A stretch of DNA of 64,000 bases from Dictyostelium discoideum (Eukaryota): assembly GCA_000004695.1 (NCBI GenBank), contig CM000154.2:512001-576000 (forward strand), given 5' to 3'. The position numbers were made by a program, and so were the translations under genes. Below are positions 8,461-60,151 of this stretch, one piece after another; the first letter of the stretch is position 1, and each line of letters opens with the position of its first letter. Under the pieces are notes generated by a model, which was given only the letters and a program-made list of their open reading frames with translations, did not search any database and was not told where the DNA came from.

Positions 8461-11064
8461 TTACTATAATCAGTTTGAGATTTAATTAATTTATTAAATT
8501 TGGAATTTGGAATATTCATTAAGTTTGAAGGAGTATCGAATTCTATTAATTGACCACTATCTATTACTGCTATTTTATTACAATCAATAATTGTTTCAAG
8601 TCTATGAGCAATTGTTAAGGTTGTACAATCTTTAAAGTTTTCTTGAATTGTTTGTTTGATTAATTGAGCTGTATGGTAATCAATTGAACTTGTGGCTTCG
8701 TCCATTAAAATGATTTTAAAATTTTTTAAAATCGTTCTACAAAGACATAATAATTGTTTTTGACCATATGAGAAACCATTATCACCATTCTCTTGTAGTG
8801 CTGTCTCTAATTTTAATGGCATTGAATTGATTGCATCCTTTAATTTAACTTTTTCAATTGATTCCCAAATTTCAAAATCAGTGAATTCATTGAATGGGTC
8901 AATGTTTGAACGAATTGTACCTGTGAAAATGAATGGATCTTGAGGTACAATACCTATTGATGATCTTAGTTTTTGTAATTGAACCTTTGATATATCAATA
9001 CCATCAATTAATATTAAACCTTTTGAACATTCTACCATTCTAAATAATGATGAAGCGATAGTTGTTTTACCGGCGCCAGTTCTACCAACTATTCCAATCT
9101 TTTCGCTGGATTGAACTTTAAATGATAAATCTTTTAAATTTGGTTCTGAATTTGGTCGATATTTAATTTCCACATTTTTAAACTCTATAATACCTTTATT
9201 TGGCCAATTAACTAAATCACCATTTGAAATAGTTTTAAGACCATCACTATCAACTTGATTAGTACCAGTGGATATGAGTTTATTTCCTTCTTTTGGAATT
9301 TCAATATAACTTTGAATTCTTTGGAATGAGTTCATTTTAACTTCTAATTCAACGATTCTACGAACTCCCCAACTTAGATAACCATTTAAACTCAAAGCAG
9401 TTGTGACTGATAACGCAGCGAGTCCATTGTTTGATGTGAATAATGCAGCAGCTAATGAAGTAAAGAATACCATTATACAACCCATAACTTCTAATCTCAT
9501 AGATATCCATCTATGAACTGCGAAACTATAAAAGATACAACCTAAATTAATATTGATATTATCAAACATTTCTTTAATAAATCTAGATTCTTGTTTATAA
9601 GTTCTAATTGTAAGTAAACCATTATAGCACTCTTGAAGTAATGAAAATACTGGCGATAATGTAATAGATTCCCATCTATTTAATTCTCTTGCTGATGGTC
9701 TATATAATCTTTGATAAATATAATAAATTATAAATAACAAAGTTAAAGGTATAATAATAATTGGAATAATGAAAACTATTGAAATTAAACCAATTGTTAA
9801 TTCAGAGAAACATATTGAAACCTCTGATAATAGATCCAACATATGAATATCAATATCACTAGTATCTTTACTGAATCTATTTAAAATTCTACCTGATGGA
9901 TTTGTATCAAAGAATCTACATGATGCATATGTTACTGATTTTAATAGTGCTGAATGTAAATTTTTACCAATTCCAAATGTTATACGACTTAATGAATATG
10001 TACGTATCATTAATAACGAAACAAAAATACCAATAATTAATAAATAGTAACCAATGTAAAATGAATCACTTTTGCCTTCAATTGATCTTTCTGTCCAAAT
10101 TGCTAACCAAAAATCTGAAACTTTATAAACGGCTTGACCAATGAAAAATAATGAAATAGTGATGAAAAGTGTTACACCTGATGTTCCATAACTAAAGTAT
10201 TTTTTATAAACATTAAATTCTACCTCTCCCTCATTTTTATCTTCTTTAACTAATAATTTTGCTTTCTCGATTAAATTTGGATCATTCTTATCACTAATAA
10301 CATTATTAACATCAATAATTTCATTTTCGATTTCAATTTCATTTTTTATTAACTCTTCACTATCAGTTTCATTTTCAACATTTTTTTTAATTTCTTTTGT
10401 TTTTAAAATTGATTTAAAATCAATACCTTGAATACAATGATCGAATAAATGTGATGCGACTTCAGGATCTACAGCTGATAAAGGTTCATCAAAAATAAAA
10501 CAATCTGAATTTGCATAAAGTGCACGTGCTAATGATATACGCTGTTTTTGACCTCCTGAAAGGTTAATACCACGTTCTCCAATCTCTGTTAAATCTAATC
10601 CTGCTAAATTTACTATATCTTTTGTTAATGCTGTTGATTCAATAACTTTTTTATATCTTTCTATATCAAATTCATTTCCAAATAGAATATTCTCTCTTAA
10701 TGATGCACTTAATAAAAATGGTTGTTGACTTGTAAATGAAATATTATTTGGTACACCACTAACACTACCATTTAATTTATAAATTTCACCAATTAAACCA
10801 CAAACTAAACTTGTTTTACCGCTACCAACAACACCACAAATCATAGTTAATTTACCTTTTGGTACTATTAAATTAATATCATTTAATTTATAATCAAAAT
10901 TTTCATTTATTTTAATATTTTCTTCATTTTCCTCTTCCTCTTCTTCTTCATTTTCTTCCTCATCTTCGCTTTGATTAAATTCAAATAAATTATTATTTTC
11001 AGGTTCATTCCATTGAAATGTACAATTTTCAATTATAATATCATTATCATCATTATTGTTATTA

Positions 11065-11099
<35 letters not shown>

Positions 11100-12477
11100 G
11101 AAGTTAATATTTTGATTATTTTCTTTTGATTTTAAAGATTCAGAAGATTTTAAAAAATTTTGAATTCTTTTGACTGATGGCATTAAACCAATAGCTTTAT
11201 AAATATCTTCAGGTAAATAAATTAAGGGTAATTTTAAATTTGCAAAAATGGTCATTGCTGTGAAAGTTACATCTAAACTCATTGTATTACCGGTTAATGA
11301 ATAAGTTGCAAATGTTGATACTAATACTAAGGTTGCATTGGTTTCAATCATCATATGATCGAAAATCCAAAATAAAACTCTAAGAAATAAAAATTTTAAT
11401 TCTTGTTTTCTTTGTTCTTCAATTTTATTTATAAATAAATTCTCCCATGCATACATTTTAAATGGTCTAATATTGGTTATTAATTCACTGGTTAAATTAG
11501 TTCTTGAATCTGAATATTCCAATGATTTCTCTAAATAATTACTAGATTTTGTACACAACATGGTGTTGATTGGTAATGCAATTACCATTACACCAAATCC
11601 AACTAAACCACTTGGACCAACTACATAACATAATAATCCCAATAATATAAGAATTTGAAGTGTATGTGATACAATATCTAAATAATAAGTCCAAAAGAAT
11701 TCTGATATATTTTCAACATCAATTGACATAATATTCATAATTTTTCCAGATCTATATTTCTTTTTTGATACATTTGATAGTTTTAATGTTTTTTCAAATA
11801 TCTTTGCTGTTAATGCGCCTCTAACATCAAAACTATTTTTCATACCAAACCAATAAAATAATTCTTGTGAAATTGATTGTCCTAATATACTGATACATAA
11901 TAAACAACATAATAAAATTCCTTTTAAAATGGATTTTTCATTATCATTATCTGTTGATATATAATTTATTAAACTTTTATAAAAAAAAAAAAAAAAGTTA
12001 GTTCTTTTTTAATTTAAAAATAAATAAATATTAGATTAAATTAAATACATACAATTTTAAACAAATTGGTGATAAAAATATAAAAATTGTAATAAATATA
12101 TTTGAAATTAATGCATATTTATTTTTTGGTAAAAAATTTTTATAAATATGTTTTATTAATGCATATTTTGAACCATTTGAAAAATTGATATCATCCAATA
12201 GTTTTGATGTGGTTTGGACTTTATTTAACTCTGGTAAATCATAAATATCGTTCATTTCTAATGATTCTTTGAAATAACCTTTCATTATTAATTTCGTTAC
12301 CCAATTAAAACTAATTTTTGACCATTTTGATGAATTATCTTCTGGACATGCTTTATAAAAATTATTTGTTGAATTTGATGGTGAAGATGATGGTTCATTT
12401 TCATCTTCATCATCAAGCTTTTCATACAATAATGAAAATTTTTTTTTTATTTTTGTTTCGAAACTATTTATAAACAT
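8445..12477 (-). CDS. abcC: ABC transporter, ABCC/MRP subfamily (TMD1-NBD1-TMD2-NBD2), copy 1; 2 exons 12477-12053 and 11963-8445; carries a 45-codon in-frame deletion in NBD1
   Basis: Exon 1 (track ORF 12031-12477) is the MRP-type N-terminus: 'CPE..SS.WSKISFNW' plus the first TM helix. A GTATGT donor (plus 12047-12052, phase 2) and an acceptor after a T16 tract (AG at 11964-11965) join it to the 1132-aa ORF. That ORF has Walker A GVVGSGKTS and GRTGAGKTT, signature motifs LSGGQKQR and FSYGQKQL, Walker B FIFDEPLSAVD and ILMDEATSSID, and H-loop AHRL in NBD2. Confidence 0.85.
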
Positions 12478-33367: not shown

Positions 33368-37255
<3,888 letters not shown>

Positions 37256-37310
37256 TCTTTATACGTTTAAAACTATTATTATTTCTTTCTTTCTTCTCTT
37301 TGTTTTAGGT

Positions 37311-37355
<45 letters not shown>

Positions 37356-37643
37356 GTTTGGTGATTAATGGTGTATTTTACAAATTAAAAATATATTGTA
37401 CACTCTATACTAAAATATATACTTCTTTTTTTATTGATGTAGTATATATATAATAGTAATAGGAATAAAAATAATAATAAAAATTAAATAATAAAAAAGT
37501 AATTCAAAAAAAAAAAAAAAAAAGATTGTGGTTCGCTTTGTGACTTTTTTTAAAAAAAAAAAAAAAAAATTTTTTTTTGAAAAAAAAAAAAATAAAAAAA
37601 AAAATAAAAAAATAAATATTAAAATCAAAAAAAATTAAAAAAG

Positions 37644-37689
<46 letters not shown>

Positions 37690-38084
37690 TTTATGATTGT
37701 TAGAATAAACATCATTTATTTGAGTTGATTATATTTTTTTTATTTGTTTATTTTTAATTTAATTTTTTTTTTCTTTTTATAGTTATAAAAATTAATTTGA
37801 TCACTACAAAGGCGATTACAACAAGGATAAATATAAAAATATTTAGATTTTGAACTATTATCAAAAATATAATTAAATAAATATAAAAAAATAAAAATAA
37901 AAATATTTTAAACAAATATTTGCAAAAATGAAGTGTTTTAATTTAAATAAATTTTTTTTATTTTTTTCACTTTTTTTTTTTTTTTTTTTTTTTTGGCCAT
38001 GATCAAAATTTATTCCCAAAACGCTTTTTTTTTTTTTTTTTTTTTTTTTTTTTCTAAAAGTTAATGTATCTTTATTTCAAATGA

Positions 38085-40643
<2,559 letters not shown>

Positions 40644-42898: not shown

Positions 42899-47973
<5,075 letters not shown>

Positions 47974-48687: not shown

Positions 48688-51600
48688 GATAGTATTATTA
48701 TTAATATTTGGACTACTATTTGCAGATTTTGAAATTATTTTAGATTTTAATTTTTTTTTTGGTTTTTTAAATAAATTTGGGAGATTATTAATAGATTTGT
48801 TTTTAGGAATTGTTGGATTANNNNNNNNNNNNNNNNNNNNNNNNNNNNNNNNNNNNNNNNNNNNNNNNNNNNNNNNNNNNNNNNNNNNNNNNNNNNNNNN
48901 NNNNNNNNNNNNNNNNNNNNTTTAAAAAATCAATAGATTGAGAACTTGGTGAATTTGTAGTTTGTTTAGGTATTTGATTTGGATAAATTTGATTATTATT
49001 ATACTTTCTTTTATTTTGATCCCAATGATTAAATAAAGAATAAATGCCTTCACCTATATCATCTTCTTCATCTTCATCTTCATCTTCTGAACTAAATGTT
49101 TCATGAATATTAAAGATTGGATTATTATTAAAATTATTATTCTTTTTTTCAATTAAAAACATTTTATAAAATATTAATAAATCTTTATTTCTTTGAATAT
49201 CTCTTTCTTGAGTTTCAATTGTTTTTTTTAAAGTTGAGACTATTTGTTTTCTTCTAAATAAAAAATTGATTTTTGGGATGAAAATTATTGATAATGTTGC
49301 AAATACTAAAATTGAAGAACCAATTGAATAAATTAAATAAATTGTTGTTGGATTATTTTGTAATGTATAAAATAAAGGTATTAGCACAATGAAAACCAAT
49401 GTATAATTGTAAATTAATATTGAATTAAATAATGATTCATAAAAAGTTCCAGGTGTTGAATGATATCTTTTACTTTTCATTGCAATGAAACAAGATGTTA
49501 ATAATATGATAACTTCATAAACCACTATTACAATTGAAAAAACATAATACTTTCTTGATATACAATACTTTGTAGCTGTTTTTGTATGTAAATCCAAAAT
49601 GAATGTTGGTTTTGAAGGATATACAATGACACCAATTAATACCAATAAAAAAACAGGCACCATTATTAGTCCGGCATATTTAACCATTTTTAAATTATCT
49701 GTATTAATTTTTAAAAAATCACTATACTTGAATAGTTTATAGATTTTATATTGCTTTAATAGTGTTAGGGTAAATAAAATTCCAATTCCAATGGGGAAAA
49801 CAATTGCACTGAATTGACATGAAAAATTGGTAGGTTCAATTGAAACATATATAATTATACAAAGGAAAAGGCAAGAGAAAAGCATTAGAATTAAAAATAC
49901 AATATTTCCAAAATTGATCACTTTTTCTTTACTATAGGCAATGGTAATTCCAAAACAAAGTAGAATCAATAATACTAAAATCGAAGTTGTAATGATCATT
50001 ACAGTTTTTGCAATATTTGAAGTTTCAATTGTTTTTAAACATTGGAAAACTTTTCCTTGATAAGATACATCAAACATTTCTTCACCTTGTGGGCAATTTA
50101 AAATTGATATTGGTAATTTTACATCACCTTTTTTAGGATTAGATTTATAGGAAAGGTTACAAAAGTGATTTTCTGGTGAATTAACTTTTAAATTATATAA
50201 TGCTGTAACACCATTCAATTGAATTGTACTTGAGGTTACACCAGTTAGATGAATATCGTCACATGAACTTACATGAAATCTTATATCATTCTTTCCTCTA
50301 ATTAAATTATCAAATTGATCGAATGCGTAGATTAATGCTGGAAAATGTTCATTTGAATGTACTTTTGAGGCTTGAATAACAGAAAATGAATGAAATCCAC
50401 TATTTATATTATTTCCAAAATGGGCAATATTATTTAAAAATAAACATGATTCACATGTATACTTAGTGCCAATGATTTTATCTCTATAGTAAACTATAGC
50501 ACCAGAAACCAATGCTGTATTATTAACGATTGTATCATTTTTAAATGTACTAAAACATTGAAAATCCGTATGCCAATAGTTGAATCTTTTCTTTACAAAA
50601 TTTATAATTGTACCATAGACACTTGTATTATTTATAAAATAATTATTGGTTGAAGTTAATTTTCCAAGTTGATCAACAGATATTATACATCCTCTAGTTT
50701 TTCCTATATTATTTTTAAAAATTGAATTATAAATTTGTAAAGTATATTCATTTCTTACAGCAATCAATTCATTTCTAACTATATTATTAAAGAATTTAGA
50801 TTCAATTATTATCATTGAAGAGTTATAAGTTGTGAAAACCATTAAAATTCCATTGTTATCAATAAAATTGTTTCTAAATAGAATTCCTCTTGCACCATTT
50901 CTTAAAACCACTAAATAATCTTCAGCTTTACATTCAATAAATGTTGTACTAATTGAAAAGAAATAACCTTGAGAATGTATATTTATAACTTTACTTGAAA
51001 CATTATAGAAAGTTGTATTGTACACTACAATGATCGCATTTGATGTACACCAAATTACATTTCCTTTTGAATTTGATACCCTTGAATCTTTTAATAATAA
51101 AAAGTTATAATTTGAAATTGAGAAAAGTGATTGAATAATTTGTCTTTTGAAATTATCACTAAATGTAAATTCACAATTGGTGAACATTGCAAGACCTGAG
51201 CCATGATTTTCAACAATCAAAGAGGATGGCGCATAGTTGTCATTGAAAATCGATAATGTAACAAATAGTATAGTTCTATCGACCAATGAAAAAACACCAC
51301 CCATTGCTGATGCCATATTTTCTTGGTAAAGACAACTCTTTTGAAATGCAAAGCTATTTTGAATGTTTGCAATGGCTGATATATTCGCATAGTTTGCATA
51401 GAATGAACATCTTGTACTTTCAATTTTTGAATCATTAAAAATTAGAAAAACACCACCATTAGATGCTTGGTTGTATGCAAAAACCGTATCTTCAACTCTA
51501 AGTTCACTATTAGATTGAACTATTACTCCACCTGTAATTGCCATATTATTTTTAAAGATTGACTTTAAAATGATTGCATTGGTTGACAATCCAAAGAAAA

Positions 51601-52227
51601 TAGCGCCACCATTGCCACCATCCTCTGATCTCATCAATGCTTGATTGGAATAAAATATACAATCTGAAATGGTTATATTCGATAAAACTGTGAAAATTGC
51701 ACCACCATTTCTTCCTTTATTATTTGAAAATACACAATTTGAAATATAGACTTTACTATATACAATTTGTAATGCTCCACCAGTTCCAATATAATAATTC
51801 AATGTTAAATAATCTAATTTGTCATCGGAATAATCGGTTAATGTCTCTGGTACATATAATGGGAATTCATTTTTTTTAACTTTACAATTATCAAATGTGA
51901 TTCCTCTAATTATTAAATTTGAATTATATGATATAACTCCTCTTGTCCCTTTATGAGTTGTTATTATTATTTTTTTATTTTCACCAATTCCAATTAAATT
52001 AATTCCAACTTGAAAATCTATAATTATAATTGAAGATGATAGGTTATAAATACCAGGTGAAAAATAAAATGTTGAATTAAAATTTTTATCAACTCTTGAA
52101 TTATTAAATAAATAACCTATATTCTTACATGGTGATTTAAAATTACCACATAATTCATTATCAAATCCTTCATTTGATAAATAAAAAAATTCTATTTATA
52201 AAGATAAAAATATTATTAAAAAATTTT

Positions 52228-52285
<58 letters not shown>

Positions 52286-52384
52286 TTTTAATTTTTTTAT
52301 TTTTTGATTTTAAATCTTACTATTTTCGGTGCTGTATATTAATTTTAAAATTAAAACCAATATTAAAATACAATGAAATTTCAT
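48544..52384 (-). CDS. Paralog 2 of the PMP-repeat beta-helix + 7-TM protein; exon 1 52384-52321 (signal peptide MKFHCILILVLILKLIYSTEN), exon 2 52191-48544 (interrupted by the N100 gap)
   Basis: The 994-aa track ORF begins at a TTG. The frame stays open upstream to 52193. An ...ATAAATAG acceptor there and a GTAAGA donor at plus 52315-52320 link it to an ATG at 52384 that encodes a signal peptide. Repeats include NGGAIFTV, NGGAIFFG, FSNN, FYSN and FKNN. Seven TM helices are followed by the tail 'FRRKQIVSTLKKTIETQERDIQRNKDLLIFYKMF'. The frame continues across the gap to a TGA at 48544-48546 (inferred). Confidence 0.6.
48821..48920. other. Assembly gap (100 N)
   Basis: Run of exactly 100 N characters. 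Confidence 1.
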
Positions 52385-52755
52385 TATGTGACATTGAATC
52401 ACATGTTAAAAATTATTGAATTAATTTCTTTTTTTTTTTTTATATTAAGTTTTTTTTTTTTTTTAATTATTTTCTATATAATATTATACATTTAAATAAT
52501 TTAAAATGTTTTAAGAAATAAAAAAAAAAAAAAAAAAATTATAATTATAATTTAAAGAAAAACATGTTGGTGATGAACTAGTTAAAAAGTAGTTTTTTTT
52601 TTTTTTTTTTATTTTTTTTTTTTTTTTAATTATTTTTTAGAATACAAATGTTTGAGAATTATGACAAACAACTGATCCAATTAAAAAATGATTTAACCAC
52701 GTGAAAAAAAAAATATTTATTTTATAAACCTCACATATATTTCTCATAATTACCA

Positions 52756-52791
<36 letters not shown>

Positions 52792-53386
52792 ATAAAATAA
52801 AAATAAATTACTTATTAAATAATTTTTTAAAAACTTTTTTTTAATATCTTTGCAATATATTTTTTTTGATTTTTTTTTTTTTTTTTTTTCTAATATCTAT
52901 TTTTTTCCTTTTAAAATAAATTAATTTTTTTTTTTTTTATTTTTTTTTTTTAAATACTAAAGAATAATCTCATTGGATGTTTTGTAATTTTAATAGATTC
53001 AATGAAAAAGATGATGATATTTATGTTAGTAAATTATTATGTCATATGATCATTTTTATTCATAATAAGCTAAACTTAAAAACCTCTTGGTTGAAATTTA
53101 ACTAAAAATTAACCAATGAATTTAATTTATTTGCAAATAAGTTCACAACAAATTTAATTGAATTAATATCTAAAAAAAAAAAAGTGCAAATTTACAATGA
53201 TTTAAAAAAAAAAAAAAAAAAAAAAATATCTGGAAAGAAAAAATGTGCAAATTATGCAAATTTAAATGATTAAAGTGGGTGAAAAAAAAAAAAAAATAAT
53301 AATAATAATATCTCCAAAAAAATGGGCTCAAAATGCAAATTTAACAATGAGAAAAGGCAATTTTTTAAATAGTTAATTTCAAAACC

Positions 53387-53439
<53 letters not shown>

Positions 53440-53547
53440 ATAAAAAATCACATTCAACAAATCTTTGACCAATAGATTCGAAATTTTTGCAAATAAAAGA
53501 TCTTTTTTTATTTTTTTATTTTTTCCTTTTTTTTTTATTTATTTTTT

Positions 53548-53584
<37 letters not shown>

Positions 53585-53808
53585 CCTATTTAATTTTATT
53601 TTATTTTTTTTCTTTATTATTAAAAATTTTAAATAATTCTTCTTTATCTTTATTAAAATATACATTAAAAGGCCACTTTAAATAATTAAATTTTAAATAT
53701 AATTTCAATAGTCACTGCTATTTTATTAATATATAATTCAGTCCAATTACAACAGATATCTGTAAAAATAACTTTTTTAAATTTGTATTTTATTTTTTCA
53801 TAAAAACC

Positions 53809-53862
<54 letters not shown>

Positions 53863-53948
53863 CTATCAATTAATAATATTTTGGGTTTTAAATTTATTTA
53901 AAAATAACATCATAAAATCGTTAATTCTAATAATTTGGTATCCAATAG

Positions 53949-53985
<37 letters not shown>

Positions 53986-54164
53986 AACCTTTAATAGGTT
54001 AAAATAATTTTAATTTAATTTTTATTTTTAATATTTAATTTTTTTTTTTTTTTTTTTTTTTTTCTTCTCCAAAACAACTTGTTTAAATAATTATTTTATT
54101 CCAGACCAAAATCAAATCTTTTTTTTTTTTTTTTTGTATTTTTTATTTTTTATATTCTTGTAAC

Positions 54165-54196
<32 letters not shown>

Positions 54197-54251
54197 CAAT
54201 TATTATTTATTTAATTATAATTGTAACATTATTTAAAAATTAAATTATCAA

Positions 54252-54579
54252 ATGAATAATATCAACATCAATAACAATAATAATAATATTACTAAAAAAA
54301 ATATTAATAAAAACAACAATCATAAAAAATATTACGATGTTTTAATTGTTGGTTGTGGTCCAAATGGAGCACTATTAGCAAATTTCCTTGGAGAAATGGG
54401 AATTAAAACATTGGTTGTGGAATGTGCCAAAACTTTTACTCAAGTCCCAAGAGCTGCACATTTAGATGATGAAGGTTTAAGAATTTTAAAAAGAATTGGA
54501 TTGGATGAAGAAATTTTAAAACAATCATTTGTAAGTAAATTTTAAAAAAAAAAAAATTTGACTAGAAAATTAATTAATC

Positions 54580-54635
<56 letters not shown>

Positions 54636-56397
54636 AAAGCAACTTGATGTTAAATTTAATAAAACATTTTGTAGTGGTAATTTAACATCAATTAAACCAG
54701 AAAATACTGAATTAAATTTTCCAAGATCAATTTTTTGGTTTCAACCAAAATTTGAAGAAACAATTAGAAATGGTTTCTTAGAAAGATATTCAAATTGTGT
54801 TGATTTAATTACTGATTGTAGAGTTGTTTCAATTGAAAAAGAGAAATTCAATATTGATGATGGTGATAACCAAGATGAAGAAAATCAAATTAAATTAAAT
54901 AATATTAAAATTGAAAATCTTACAACTGGTGAGATATCAAATTTAAAGAGTAAAATTATAATTGGTGCTGATGGTGGTAATAGTTTTATAAGAAAATCAA
55001 TTGCTAGTAAAATGGAAGGTTCCAGTAGTAAACAAAGATGGTTAGTAGTTGATGCCAAAATTGATAAAGATCATCCACCATTGCCACATTATTTTCAATT
55101 TATTTGTAATCCATCTAGACCTGCTCTAACTTTACCAATTCCACCAAACCATTATCGTTGGGAATTTTTAATAAATGAAAACGAAAAATCTGAAGAAATG
55201 GAGAAACCAGAGATTCTAAACCCACTCTTACAAAGTCATGGTGCTGATATAAGCAAATTGGAAATCATTAGAAAAGCATGCTACGTGTTCCAAAATAGAA
55301 TTGCTGACAATTGGTACAACGGCGACACCACATTACTCATTGGAGATGCTTGTCATTTGGTTCCCCCATTTCTAGGTATGGGCATTTCTAGTGGCTTTAG
55401 AGATGTTCAAAATATTGCATGGAAAATAGAACTATTTTTAAAAGGTGTAATTTCAAATCACCAAACACTCTTCTCATCCTACCAAATTGAAAGACAGCCA
55501 AACATTGAAAATATCACTGAAAAAGCTACACATGCTGGAGAAATGATTATGATTACCAATAGATACAAAGCATTTCTTCGTAATCTTTTATTATCAACTT
55601 TACTTTCATTCCCATCAATCGAAAAATTATTTCATAACAAAGCCGGTATGAAACCACCAAATATTATCAAACATGGGCTAATTGATTCAACTTCATCATT
55701 AACAACTCTACAATCCAATACATTCAAAATAAATATAATCGGTCAATCAATTCCTCAACCTTTTGTTAAATTAATTAACAAACAAATCAAACAACAATCA
55801 AATGAAATTTTATTAGATGAAGTTTTAGGTAATGGTTTCAGTTGTTTATTCTTTAATTTCAATAAAAATGATAAAAATTGTGAATTTAATAAATTGGTTT
55901 CAAAAATTATTTCAAATCAAGTTTTTAAAATTTTAAAAACAAATTTTATTCAAGTTATTGGAAATAATCAAAAATATTCAAAATTATTCACAAAATCATC
56001 ATCCTCATCATTATCATCCTCTTTATCAATTATATTGGATGATTCAAAAGAATCATTATTTAAATTCATTTTTAATAATAATAATTCTAATAATCAAACA
56101 CTTGAACCAACAATAGTAATAATTAGACCTGATAAATTTATATTTGGAGTTTATCAAAATGTAAATTTAAAAAGTTCAAAAATTATATCATCAATTACAA
56201 GTATATTAAATATTAACTATAATTATGCTTTCAATTATGATAATATTAATTTTACCAATAATAATAATAATAACACCACTGGTGGTAGTGCAAGTGAAAG
56301 TGAAAATTCTTTCAATAGTCATGTTCATAGTGGTAATAGTTTAGGTGACATAAGTGGTGATGATAATAATTCTGATATTTTAGAAGAATTTAATTAA
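54252..56397 (+). CDS. FAD-dependent aromatic-ring monooxygenase, bacterial PheA/TfdB/MhpA-type; exons 54252-54530 and 54640-56397
   Basis: The N-terminus 'YDVLIVGCGPNGALLANFLGEMGIKTLVVECAKTFTQVPRAAHLDDEGLRILKRIGL' aligns closely with MhpA/PheA (GxGxxG plus 'PRA..IDDE.LR'). 'IIGADGGNSFIRK' is the DG motif and 'LLIGDACHLVPPFLGMG' the GDAxH motif. A GTAAGT donor at 54531 and an AAAAAAAAG acceptor (AG at 54638-54639) are in phase 0. The Ser/Asn-rich C-terminal extension is typical of Dictyostelium. Confidence 0.8.

Positions 56398-57374: not shown

Positions 57375-60151
<2,777 letters not shown>

What the first reader, a model, noticed from the sequence alone, without database searches (positions are those of the whole stretch)
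54252..56397. Bacterial-type FAD aromatic hydroxylase (PheA/MhpA family) that is a candidate horizontal acquisition
The N-terminal about 350 aa align closely with proteobacterial 3-(3-hydroxyphenyl)propionate and phenol hydroxylases. Shared elements are the GxGxxG motif, 'PRA..LDDEGLR', the DG motif GADGGNSFIRK and the GDAxH motif GDACHLVPPFLGMG. This family is sparse in eukaryotes. The gene has since acquired a phase-0 spliceosomal intron (54531-54639) and an Asn/Ser-rich tail. It sits after a 1.9-kb gene-free region, which is unusual for this compact genome.
Basis: partly seen in the sequence, partly recalled or inferred. Interest (0 to 1): 0.5.

Follow-up and report, generated by a model that had tools for sequence, protein, structure and literature searches.

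The report
Ancient bacterial-type aromatic hydroxylase in Dictyostelium
This is the already-annotated Dictyostelium discoideum gene for a bacterial-type FAD-dependent aromatic ring hydroxylase (UniProt Q54K08), which probably came from bacteria before the social amoebae diversified and has been an ordinary nuclear gene ever since; its substrate is unknown.

Summary
Window 54252-56397 (+) encodes a two-exon, 678-aa protein identical to D. discoideum AX4 XP_636994.1 / Q54K08, "FAD-binding monooxygenase". It is a complete three-domain group A flavoprotein monooxygenase. Homology to bacterial MhpA-type enzymes covers about 600 residues, not 350, but is only 27-36% identical and falls below every curated MhpA cut-off.

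The horizontal-transfer reading is partly supported. Orthologues form one dictyostelid clade (97-100% NJ bootstrap). Every outsider whose organism is named or whose contig I inspected is bacterial, except one malawimonad transcript that does not group with it. The clade is usually nested among bacterial sequences (94/100; 154/200 after recoding), with no stable sister.

Any transfer is ancient. The phase-0 intron sits at the same site in five species across dictyostelid groups 1, 2 and 4. GPCR/hydroxylase/Seipin synteny holds in three species, and the hydroxylase-Seipin pair also in a group-1 species. Codon usage matches the neighbours. The 2.07-kb upstream gap is a conserved divergent promoter, not an insertion scar.

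The substrate cannot be assigned, because close bacterial relatives sit in both catabolic and polyketide clusters. This is a modest, probably unlisted addition to known dictyostelid HGT candidates.

The parts
54252..54530 (+). Exon 1, codons 1-93. Holds the Asn-rich disordered N-terminus (residues 1-24, 54252-54323), the GxGxxG FAD-binding motif GCGPNG (residues 34-39, 54351-54368) and PRAAHLDDEGLR (residues 66-77, 54447-54482).
   Evidence: identical to Q54K08; pLDDT below 50 for residues 1-24.
54531..54639 (+). Spliceosomal intron, 109 nt, GTAAGT...AG, phase 0, between ...KQSF and QLDV...
   Evidence: There is an intron at the same alignment position and phase in another D. discoideum strain (105 nt), D. 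purpureum (117 nt), C. fasciculata (115 nt), P. violaceum (75 nt) and H. album (87 nt).
54640..56397 (+). Exon 2, codons 94-678 plus the TAA stop. Holds the DG motif GADGGNSFIRK (residues 202-212, 54964-54996) and the GD motif GDACHLVPPFLGMG (residues 328-341, 55342-55383).
   Evidence: Pfam PF01494 covers residues 28-388.
55738..56220 (+). C-terminal alpha/beta domain (about residues 460-620), thioredoxin-like as in phenol hydroxylase, HbpA and RdmE. Ends with the conserved RPD motif (residues 589-591).
   Evidence: Collinear with bacterial relatives to residue ~600. The AF2 model is confident over most of it. Foldseek gives full-length matches to three-domain enzymes with TM 0.7-0.8 normalised to the target.
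56227..56394 (+). Asn/Ser/Gly-rich disordered tail (residues 623-678), a lineage-specific addition.
   Evidence: pLDDT 25-41. Present only in D. discoideum, D. citrinum and D. firmibasis in alignment A1.
52187..54251 (.). 2.07-kb divergent intergenic (promoter) region shared with the upstream minus-strand 7tm_3 GPCR gene. Homopolymer-rich, with no tRNA or Rfam hit.
   Evidence: The equivalent gap is 2.0 kb in another D. discoideum strain, 1.5 kb in D. purpureum and 2.2 kb in P. violaceum.
49145..52186 (-). Context: upstream neighbour, a family-3 GPCR (7tm_3) with an N-terminal beta-helix region. It is the orthologue of the D. purpureum and P. violaceum upstream neighbours.
   Evidence: Pfam; tblastn 50% identity over 1023 aa to the D. 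purpureum neighbour.
57634..59257 (+). Context: downstream neighbour, the Seipin orthologue (several exons). The hydroxylase-Seipin adjacency is conserved in D. purpureum, P. violaceum and C. fasciculata.
   Evidence: tblastn of the D. purpureum and C. fasciculata Seipin gene regions onto the window.

Best explanation
The locus is a functional nuclear gene of D. discoideum (Q54K08). It encodes a single-component, FAD-containing, NAD(P)H-dependent group A flavoprotein monooxygenase of the MhpA-type (PRK06183) family.

Inferred mechanism, from the established chemistry of this enzyme class:
1. FAD is held by the GxGxxG Rossmann motif and by the DG and GD motifs.
2. Binding of a phenolic substrate permits reduction of the flavin by NAD(P)H.
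3. The reduced flavin reacts with O2 to form a C4a-hydroperoxyflavin.
4. This intermediate hydroxylates the activated aromatic ring ortho or para to an existing hydroxyl.
5. The C-terminal thioredoxin-like domain serves oligomerisation.

The physiological substrate is unknown. The protein is not an MhpA equivalog.

Evolutionary inference: the gene most likely entered the lineage from a bacterium before the last common ancestor of Dictyostelia. It then gained an intron, took on host codon usage and a fixed chromosomal position next to Seipin, and has since been inherited vertically. There was a lineage-specific duplication in Cavenderia, and low-complexity extensions were added in the D. discoideum group.

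Shown here: gene structure, family, fold, distribution, intron and synteny conservation. Inferred: catalysis, and the direction and timing of transfer.
For: Enzyme class:
- Pfam PF01494 at 155 bits.
- The best NCBIfam models are all PRK06183 MhpA-type, aligned over residues 23-604.
- All three class motifs are present and sit in invariant or nearly invariant (90% or more) columns of alignment A1.
- AF2 model pTM 0.80. Foldseek gives full-length matches to RdmE, PieE, HbpA, RebC and phenol hydroxylase.

Genuine host gene:
- Identical to the annotated AX4 protein.
- Intron at one conserved phase-0 site in five species of groups 1, 2 and 4 and the violaceum complex.
- 7tm_3 GPCR / hydroxylase / Seipin synteny.
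- GC3 and RSCU indistinguishable from neighbours.

Bacterial origin:
- An exhaustive HMMER search of 1.84 billion representatives shows a score gap. Dictyostelids score 292 bits or more; the best outsiders score 247 bits at 34-36% identity.
- Every outsider whose organism is named or whose contig I inspected is bacterial. In addition, 590 tblastn-confirmed stretches in bacterial and archaeal genomes span Actinomycetota, Pseudomonadota, Chloroflexota, Myxococcota and Bacteroidota.
- The only non-dictyostelid eukaryote seen, Gefionella, has actinobacterial nearest relatives. It is sole sister of the dictyostelids in only 11/100 and 12/200 replicates.
- The dictyostelid clade is monophyletic in 97-100% of replicates. 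Rooted on distant paralogues, it is nested among bacterial sequences in 94/100 replicates, and in 154/200 with Dayhoff-6 recoding.
- The internal topology roughly follows the species tree.
Against: - The trees are only NJ on distances close to saturation. The stem is long (0.20 against a median internal branch of 0.04) and no sister group is stable.
- With recoding, the single best tree places the clade outside all sampled bacterial MhpA-type sequences. That placement is also compatible with an ancient eukaryotic lineage.
- The word-limited searches could not probe fungi or other Amoebozoa specifically.
- No expression, enzymatic or genetic data were available.
- The conserved Gln of the GQG segment is Met or Leu in all dictyostelids, and the Asn that is commonest in bacteria and invariant in the distant paralogues is Ser. 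The consequences are unknown.
Confidence: 0.6

Rival explanations
1. Vertical inheritance. The gene descends from an ancient eukaryotic gene, present in the last eukaryotic common ancestor or derived from the mitochondrial endosymbiont. It was lost from almost all eukaryotes and retained in Dictyostelia, and perhaps in malawimonads.
For: The stem branch is long and no bacterial sister is resolved. The recoded NJ tree places the clade outside all 76 sampled bacterial and Gefionella MhpA-type sequences. A second eukaryote, Gefionella, carries a family member and appears somewhere in the sister group in 94/200 recoded replicates.
Against: Gefionella is sole sister in only 6-11% of replicates, and its own best relatives are actinobacterial at about 35% identity, with no dictyostelid among its top 120 hits. 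No other eukaryote was identified in either list: the best 150 of 763 strong cluster representatives, or the 97 hits of the profile search, where every eukprot-tagged hit is a dictyostelid. This reading requires very many independent losses.
Confidence: 0.22
2. Recent horizontal acquisition or bacterial contamination of the assembly.
For: Only the bacterial affinity of the protein family.
Against: The gene has a spliceosomal intron. Its coding sequence has 14% GC3 and host codon usage. It is present with the same intron and neighbours in species spanning the dictyostelid tree. Identity to any bacterial protein is at most 38%.
Confidence: 0.01
3. Functional rival: it is a true MhpA, a 3-(3-hydroxyphenyl)propionate / 3-hydroxycinnamate 2-hydroxylase that feeds a meta-cleavage pathway for phenylpropanoids from plant litter or from prey.
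For: The best-scoring curated models are all annotated as MhpA. The protein is collinear along its full length with the Citrobacter MhpA of an mhpRABCD operon. Several close bacterial relatives lie in meta-cleavage-type operons.
Against: It scores 342, 326 and 204 bits against cut-offs of 546, 390 and 966, and every dictyostelid orthologue tested also fails. Identity to genuine MhpA is only 27%. No dioxygenase or hydrolase partner lies near it in any dictyostelid locus examined. Other equally close relatives sit in polyketide clusters.
Confidence: 0.12
4. Functional rival: it tailors endogenous polyketide phenols made by the Steely (type III PKS-containing) synthases. An example would be hydroxylating the resorcinol MPBD on the way to dictyoquinone, in the manner of SrsC- or Hid-type hydroxylases of bacterial alkylresorcinol clusters.
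For: One close relative, P0105, lies between a CylI-like type III PKS, a methyltransferase and a fatty-acyl-activating protein. Another, P0017, lies beside two ketosynthase genes. srsABC- and hid-type clusters pair a type III PKS with a stand-alone hydroxylase or oxidoreductase (PMC8086630). D. discoideum makes MPBD (PMC4164351). Dictyoquinone has MW 208.26, which equals MPBD plus O minus 2H.
Against: The P0105 affinity disappears on recoding (16/200) and is explained by shared AT-rich composition. The L085 type III PKS is CylI-like, and Steely is not among its 60 best solved relatives. No PKS or methyltransferase neighbours the gene in any dictyostelid examined. No experimental link was found.
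Confidence: 0.08

Closest known systems
MhpA, 3-(3-hydroxyphenyl)propionate/3-hydroxycinnamate hydroxylase (NCBIfam PRK06183 models NF004827-NF004831), e.g. the Citrobacter werkmanii mhpRABCD operon in L017
   Same: Same three-domain architecture and full-length collinearity (residues 30-597 against 18-522). All class motifs are shared. These are the best-scoring curated models.
   Different: Only 27% identity. Below every curated cut-off (342 vs 546, 326 vs 390, 204 vs 966). Not in an operon with meta-cleavage genes. It has an intron and low-complexity insertions, and carries Met/Leu and Ser in place of the Gln and Asn of the GQGxN segment.
Structurally characterised three-domain group A monooxygenases: RdmE (3ihg), PieE (6u0p), HbpA (4z2r, 5brt), RebC (2r0c), phenol hydroxylase (1pn0, 1foh), hydroquinone hydroxylase TvMNX3 (8r2u), VibO (7yj0)
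   Same: Same overall fold over about 620-650 aligned columns, with TM 0.7-0.8 normalised to the target. Sequence E-values of 1e-14 to 3e-20 for RdmE, HbpA, phenol hydroxylase, TvMNX3 and VibO, and weaker for PieE (6e-11) and RebC (7e-8).
   Different: 14-18% identity in the structural alignments. The substrates are unrelated (anthracyclinone, pyridinol, biphenyl, indolocarbazole, phenol). The fungal members are far more distant (65-76 bits) than the bacterial MhpA-type proteins (up to 247 bits).
The 16-18 published candidate bacterial-to-Dictyostelium gene transfers (Eichinger 2005; Sucgang 2011, PMC3188802 Table 2): ThyX, IptA, Ppk1, OsmC, TerD and others
   Same: Bacterial-type gene conserved among dictyostelids, fully host-like in composition, and inferred to be older than the group 4 radiation.
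   Different: Not on that list. The listed genes were not recognised in plant, animal or fungal genomes, whereas the PF01494 superfamily also has eukaryotic members, for example the fungal phenol hydroxylases. Here the case rests on subfamily phylogeny and is weaker.
SrsC- and HidB-type tailoring enzymes of bacterial type III PKS (alkylresorcinol) clusters
   Same: A close family member (P0105) occupies exactly this kind of cluster (PMC8086630).
   Different: No robust phylogenetic tie, no PKS neighbour in dictyostelids, and the associated PKS is CylI-like rather than Steely-like.

Membership tests
Group A flavoprotein monooxygenases (Pfam PF01494 FAD_binding_3) | Score above the Pfam gathering threshold over the whole domain | tested here: met
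   155.3 bits against 22; residues 28-388 cover profile positions 2-348 of 349.
Group A flavoprotein monooxygenases (Pfam PF01494 FAD_binding_3) | GxGxxG dinucleotide-binding motif, DG motif and GD (GDAxH) motif | tested here: met
   GCGPNG at 34-39, GADGG at 202-206, GDACH at 328-332. Most of these positions are invariant or nearly invariant (90% or more) columns in A1, and the invariant columns of A3 include G34, G36, P37, G39, D204, G205, G328, D329, A330 and H332.
Group A flavoprotein monooxygenases (Pfam PF01494 FAD_binding_3) | FAD/substrate domains plus a C-terminal thioredoxin-like domain (the three-domain subclass) | tested here: met
   AF2 model pTM 0.80; full-length Foldseek matches to RdmE, PieE, HbpA and phenol hydroxylase.
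Group A flavoprotein monooxygenases (Pfam PF01494 FAD_binding_3) | Bound FAD and substrate-gated NAD(P)H-dependent hydroxylation | not testable with these tools
   Requires purified protein.
MhpA (3-HPP/3-hydroxycinnamate hydroxylase), NCBIfam equivalogs NF004827/28/30/31 and subfamily NF004829 | Whole-protein score at or above the curated cut-off | tested here: not met
   341.7 vs 546, 326.3 vs 390, 227.4 vs 853, 204.4 vs 966, 187.1 vs 1135. The C. fasciculata and P. violaceum orthologues also fail, while genuine MhpA scores 1212 and Acinetobacter P0015 scores 735.
MhpA (3-HPP/3-hydroxycinnamate hydroxylase), NCBIfam equivalogs NF004827/28/30/31 and subfamily NF004829 | Genomic association with mhpB/C/D/E/F meta-cleavage genes | tested here: not met
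   The neighbours are a 7tm_3 GPCR and Seipin, or Mob1/Ppk1, or MutS/DNase II, in five dictyostelid loci. This is a weak criterion because eukaryotic genes are rarely clustered; the rest of the genome was not searched.
MhpA (3-HPP/3-hydroxycinnamate hydroxylase), NCBIfam equivalogs NF004827/28/30/31 and subfamily NF004829 | Activity on 3-HPP or 3-hydroxycinnamate | not testable with these tools
   No biochemical data were found.
Bacterium-to-eukaryote horizontally transferred gene | Eukaryotic sequences nested within a bacterial clade with support | tested here: inconclusive
   Nested in 94/100 replicates (BLOSUM score distance) and 154/200 (Dayhoff-6). No sister exceeds 24%, and the recoded best tree is not nested. 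NJ only.
Bacterium-to-eukaryote horizontally transferred gene | Absence from other eukaryotic lineages | tested here: inconclusive
   Only Gefionella was found among the labelled outsiders, and every eukprot-tagged profile hit is a dictyostelid. Most top hits are unnamed, and fungi and other Amoebozoa could not be queried directly.
Bacterium-to-eukaryote horizontally transferred gene | Real integration in the host genome (not contamination) | tested here: met
   Conserved intron, conserved synteny and host codon usage.
Bacterium-to-eukaryote horizontally transferred gene | Compositional or codon-usage anomaly (expected only for recent events) | tested here: not met
   GC3 0.141 against 0.132 +/- 0.042; RSCU r = 0.965, within the range of neighbouring ORFs.
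SrsC/Hid-type alkylresorcinol-tailoring hydroxylases | Specific phylogenetic affinity to a hydroxylase encoded next to a type III PKS | tested here: not met
   P0105 is sole sister in 24/100 replicates without recoding but only 16/200 with recoding. Shared AT-rich composition accounts for the signal.
SrsC/Hid-type alkylresorcinol-tailoring hydroxylases | Linkage to, or co-inheritance with, a type III PKS | tested here: not met
   No PKS lies near the gene in the dictyostelid loci. The L085 PKS is CylI-like, not Steely-like.

The most novel reading that the evidence does not exclude
The dictyostelid clade could be a domesticated bacterial alkylresorcinol- or acylphloroglucinol-tailoring hydroxylase that now acts on the amoeba's own Steely-derived signalling polyketides. 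An example would be conversion of MPBD to the hydroxyquinone dictyoquinone. That would make it an unassigned enzyme of developmental signal metabolism conserved across all social amoebae.
Probability: 0.08. Interest if true: 0.55.

Novelty: new member of a known kind. Interest (0 to 1): 0.3.

Why it matters
If the ancient-transfer reading is right, the gene adds one more metabolic enzyme to the short list of bacterial genes fixed in the ancestor of the social amoebae. That list was compiled from genes not recognised in plant, animal or fungal genomes, so it would have missed subfamily-level cases such as this one. The conserved intron and synteny give a clean minimum age for the event.

In practical terms, this is an uncharacterised aromatic hydroxylase conserved across Dictyostelia, in organisms whose development is controlled by phenolic polyketides. 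That makes it a reasonable, though unproven, candidate for knock-out and metabolite profiling. Otherwise it is an ordinary, already-annotated enzyme gene.

Tried and rejected
1. Codon usage and GC3 as a transfer signal: no anomaly. This is uninformative for an old event.

2. Hidden genes or RNAs in the 2-kb upstream gap: no tRNA, no Rfam family, only homopolymer-type repeats.

3. P0105 / Flavobacterium as the donor-like sister group: it appeared in 42/100 replicates but collapsed under Dayhoff-6 recoding. L085 has 32-34% G+C, and these sequences share the FYMINK-rich composition of the dictyostelids. Rejected as compositional attraction.

4. Co-transfer with the Steely type III PKS: the PKS next to P0105 is CylI-like, and Steely is not among its top 60 solved relatives. 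Rejected.

5. Discrete shared characters (an indel at residues 228-256, GD-motif substitutions) to identify a bacterial sister: none was diagnostic. Ser343 is shared with Gefionella and 5 of 79 bacterial sequences; Met/Leu340 is almost unique to the dictyostelids, with only 1 of 79 bacterial sequences carrying Met there.

6. A eukaryotic clade reached through Gefionella: its relatives are all bacterial.

7. A metagenome scan for intermediates that would break the long stem: only a Polysphondylium-like copy turned up.

8. Literature look-ups by accession or protein name found nothing. The Eichinger 2005 paper was not held.

9. Technical failures: the spliced protein could not be submitted to the look-up of encoding contigs, P0009 is not on record, and alignment A1 was too divergent for a genome scan.
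Full report
**What is there.** The window has about 20% G+C with homopolymer-rich intergenic DNA. Joining 54252-54530 to 54640-56397 across a 109-nt GTAAGT...AG phase-0 intron gives a 678-aa protein. Without splicing, the frame stops four codons into the intron. The product is identical to D. discoideum AX4 XP_636994.1 / EAL63494.1 / UniProt Q54K08, annotated "FAD-binding monooxygenase". So the window is the AX4 reference genome and the gene model is already public.

**Family and fold.**
- Pfam FAD_binding_3 matches residues 28-388 at 155 bits.
- The best NCBIfam models are the five PRK06183 "MhpA" models, aligned from residue 23 to about 604. All scores fall below the curated cut-offs: 342 vs 546, 326 vs 390, 204 vs 966.
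- A genuine MhpA, taken from a Citrobacter werkmanii mhpR-mhpABCD operon (L017; 1212 bits on NF004827), is collinear with residues 30-597 but only 27% identical.
- An AlphaFold2 model (pLDDT 76.7, pTM 0.80) is confident except for residues 1-24, a few loops and 623-678.
- Foldseek matches the model over about 620-650 columns to three-domain group A monooxygenases: RdmE, PieE, HbpA, RebC, phenol hydroxylase and VibO.

Homology therefore covers the whole enzyme, including the thioredoxin-like C-terminal domain, and not only the first 350 residues. The Asn-rich N-terminus, the acidic insert near residue 165, the Ser run near residue 548 and the C-terminal tail are low-complexity additions. The tail is found only in D. 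discoideum, D. citrinum and D. firmibasis.

**Distribution.**
- Word-indexed searches with the protein and with a dictyostelid profile return orthologues from D. citrinum, D. firmibasis, D. purpureum, Polysphondylium violaceum, Cavenderia fasciculata (two paralogues), Heterostelium album, Acytostelium subglobosum and two unnamed EukProt entries. After those come only bacterial-type sequences at 22-33% identity.
- An exhaustive HMMER search of 1.84 billion cluster representatives gives 763 hits below 1e-30. There is a gap between the dictyostelids (292 bits or more) and the best outsiders (247 bits, 34-36% identity).
- Wherever outsiders carry an organism name they are bacteria: a BD1-7 gammaproteobacterium, a candidate division, Flavobacterium, a Bacillus-like organism, Streptomyces and marine MAGs.
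- Contigs I inspected are gene-dense bacterial operons.
- A scan of GTDB genomes found 590 tblastn-confirmed stretches across Actinomycetota, Alpha-, Beta- and Gammaproteobacteria, Chloroflexota, Myxococcota, Bacteroidota and others, at 22-35% identity.
- The one exception is P0180, a transcript of the malawimonad Gefionella okellyi. Its own nearest relatives are actinobacterial at about 35% identity, and no dictyostelid or other eukaryote appears among its top 120 hits.
- A metagenome scan found a single intermediate, L089. It is 77% identical to the P. violaceum protein, so it is an environmental dictyostelid. Every other hit was 33% identical or less.

**Phylogeny.** No ML program was available, so I used NJ with bootstrapping.
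- 231 sequences, 499 columns: dictyostelids monophyletic in 97/100 replicates, with no sister above 13/100.
- A labelled set of 105 sequences with distant paralogues as outgroup and a BLOSUM score distance: monophyly 100/100; nested among MhpA-type bacterial sequences in 94/100. The sister was most often P0105 and/or Flavobacterium (42/100), and Gefionella alone in 11/100.
- P0105's contig has 32-34% G+C. Dictyostelids, Flavobacterium and P0105 are among the sequences with the highest FYMINK content.
- After Dayhoff-6 recoding, monophyly stays at 199/200 and nesting at 154/200. P0105 falls to 16/200, Gefionella alone is 12/200, and the best tree places the clade outside all sampled bacterial sequences.
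- Within the clade the topology roughly follows the species tree, with a Cavenderia-specific duplication.

The conclusion is one old, long-branched dictyostelid lineage inside or at the edge of an otherwise almost purely bacterial family, with the donor unresolved.

**Age and integration.**
- The intron lies at the same phase-0 position (...S[F/Y] | [Q/E/P]L.V...) in a second D. discoideum strain, D. purpureum, C. fasciculata, P. violaceum and H. album.
- The arrangement 7tm_3 GPCR (minus strand) / hydroxylase / Seipin is shared by D. discoideum, D. purpureum and P. violaceum. The hydroxylase-Seipin pair is also found in C. fasciculata. H. album differs.
- GC3 is 0.141 against 0.132 +/- 0.042 for 20 neighbouring ORFs, and RSCU correlates at 0.965 with the pooled neighbours.

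The gene, its intron and its position therefore predate the dictyostelid radiation. Contamination and recent transfer are excluded.

**The upstream gap.** The upstream GPCR gene extends to about 52186, so the gap is 2.07 kb. It is a head-to-head promoter region with no tRNA or Rfam match and only homopolymer-type repeats. The corresponding region is 2.0, 1.5 and 2.2 kb in another D. discoideum strain, D. purpureum and P. violaceum. It is the longest gap between ORFs of 150 aa or more in the window apart from the ORF-poor first 4 kb, but a similar 1.8-kb divergent gap exists at 37255-39045. It has no bearing on the gene's origin.

**Function.** The class mechanism follows from established knowledge of group A flavoprotein monooxygenases, and all the required motifs are intact. 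That mechanism is substrate-gated reduction of FAD by NAD(P)H, formation of a C4a-hydroperoxyflavin, and electrophilic hydroxylation of a phenol.

The substrate cannot be transferred by homology, for two reasons:
- The dictyostelid proteins fail every MhpA cut-off, whereas Acinetobacter P0015, which sits in a meta-cleavage operon, passes.
- Equally close bacterial relatives occupy different contexts. Some are catabolic, beside a hydrolase, glyoxalase-fold protein, FAA hydrolase or aldehyde dehydrogenase. Others are biosynthetic: P0105 lies between a CylI-like type III PKS, an ICMT-type methyltransferase and a FAAL-ACAD-ACP protein, and P0017 lies beside two ketosynthases.

The biosynthetic context resembles the srsABC and hid alkylresorcinol clusters (PMC8086630). 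D. discoideum makes resorcinolic and phloroglucinol polyketides. These include MPBD (PMC4164351) and dictyoquinone, whose mass equals MPBD + O - 2H. This makes a polyketide-tailoring role an attractive idea. However, the phylogenetic tie to P0105 is not robust, the neighbouring PKS is not Steely-like, and no PKS is linked to the gene in dictyostelids. It remains speculation, at about 8%.

**Comparison with what is known.** The gene is not among the 16-18 published candidate bacterial transfers into Dictyostelium (PMC3188802 Table 2). That list was restricted to genes not recognised in plant, animal or fungal genomes. No paper in the library mentions its accessions.

It is best described as a divergent new member of the MhpA-type branch of group A flavoprotein monooxygenases, and as a plausible further example of ancient bacterium-to-dictyostelid transfer. 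My confidence in ancient transfer is about 0.6, and in vertical descent with massive loss about 0.2. Overall the finding is real but modest.

Noticed in passing
window 53129-53494: Seven TGCAAAT motifs lie within about 360 bp of the divergent promoter, against a window background of 0.41 per kb. Three are exact TGCAAATTTA copies at 53185, 53255 and 53334, spaced about 70-79 bp apart. The cluster is conserved in another D. discoideum strain (L002 8763-9284) but absent from the D. purpureum and P. violaceum intergenic regions. It may be a species-specific regulatory element or a degenerate local tandem duplication.
   Followed up: partly
L089 562-2493 (metagenome contig Ga0256900_1007717): An environmental Polysphondylium-like orthologue (77% identity to P. 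violaceum) is one uninterrupted 644-codon ORF, although P. violaceum itself has the conserved 75-nt intron. Either the contig is a spliced transcript from a metatranscriptome or this lineage lost the intron.
   Followed up: partly
L004 774-4503 vs 10001-12008 (Cavenderia fasciculata GL883010.1): In C. fasciculata the hydroxylase lies about 5.5 kb from the polyphosphate kinase gene (PP_kinase domains), one of the classical bacterial-transfer candidates of Dictyostelium. The two are not linked in the D. discoideum, D. purpureum or P. violaceum loci, so this is probably coincidence.
   Followed up: no
window 43755-45536, 45514-47973 and 48818-52186 (minus strand); N run 48821-48920: Two family-3 GPCR (7tm_3) genes lie in tandem upstream; at least the second has an N-terminal right-handed beta-helix region. 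tblastn with the D. purpureum orthologue also hits 43373-46662 at 27-28% identity, which suggests paralogues. A 100-N assembly gap sits at the 3' end of the second gene.
   Followed up: partly
L170 6001-8998 (Heterostelium album P0008): The annotated H. album protein has a 751-nt second 'intron', and its C-terminal 200 residues do not align with any orthologue. The public gene model probably skips the true C-terminal domain.
   Followed up: no
P0009 (EukProt gene12808-15030_t, 1143 aa): A dictyostelid-clade orthologue is fused in its gene model to a Peptidase_M66 (dictomallein-like) domain. This is most likely two adjacent genes merged by the gene caller.
   Followed up: no
P0180 (Gefionella okellyi transcript, 599 aa): A malawimonad carries an MhpA-type monooxygenase with an N-terminal hydrophobic segment and a 23-residue insertion near the position of dictyostelid residue 238. 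Its nearest relatives are actinobacterial at about 35% identity. It may be an independent transfer or contamination from prey bacteria.
   Followed up: partly
   Followed up: no
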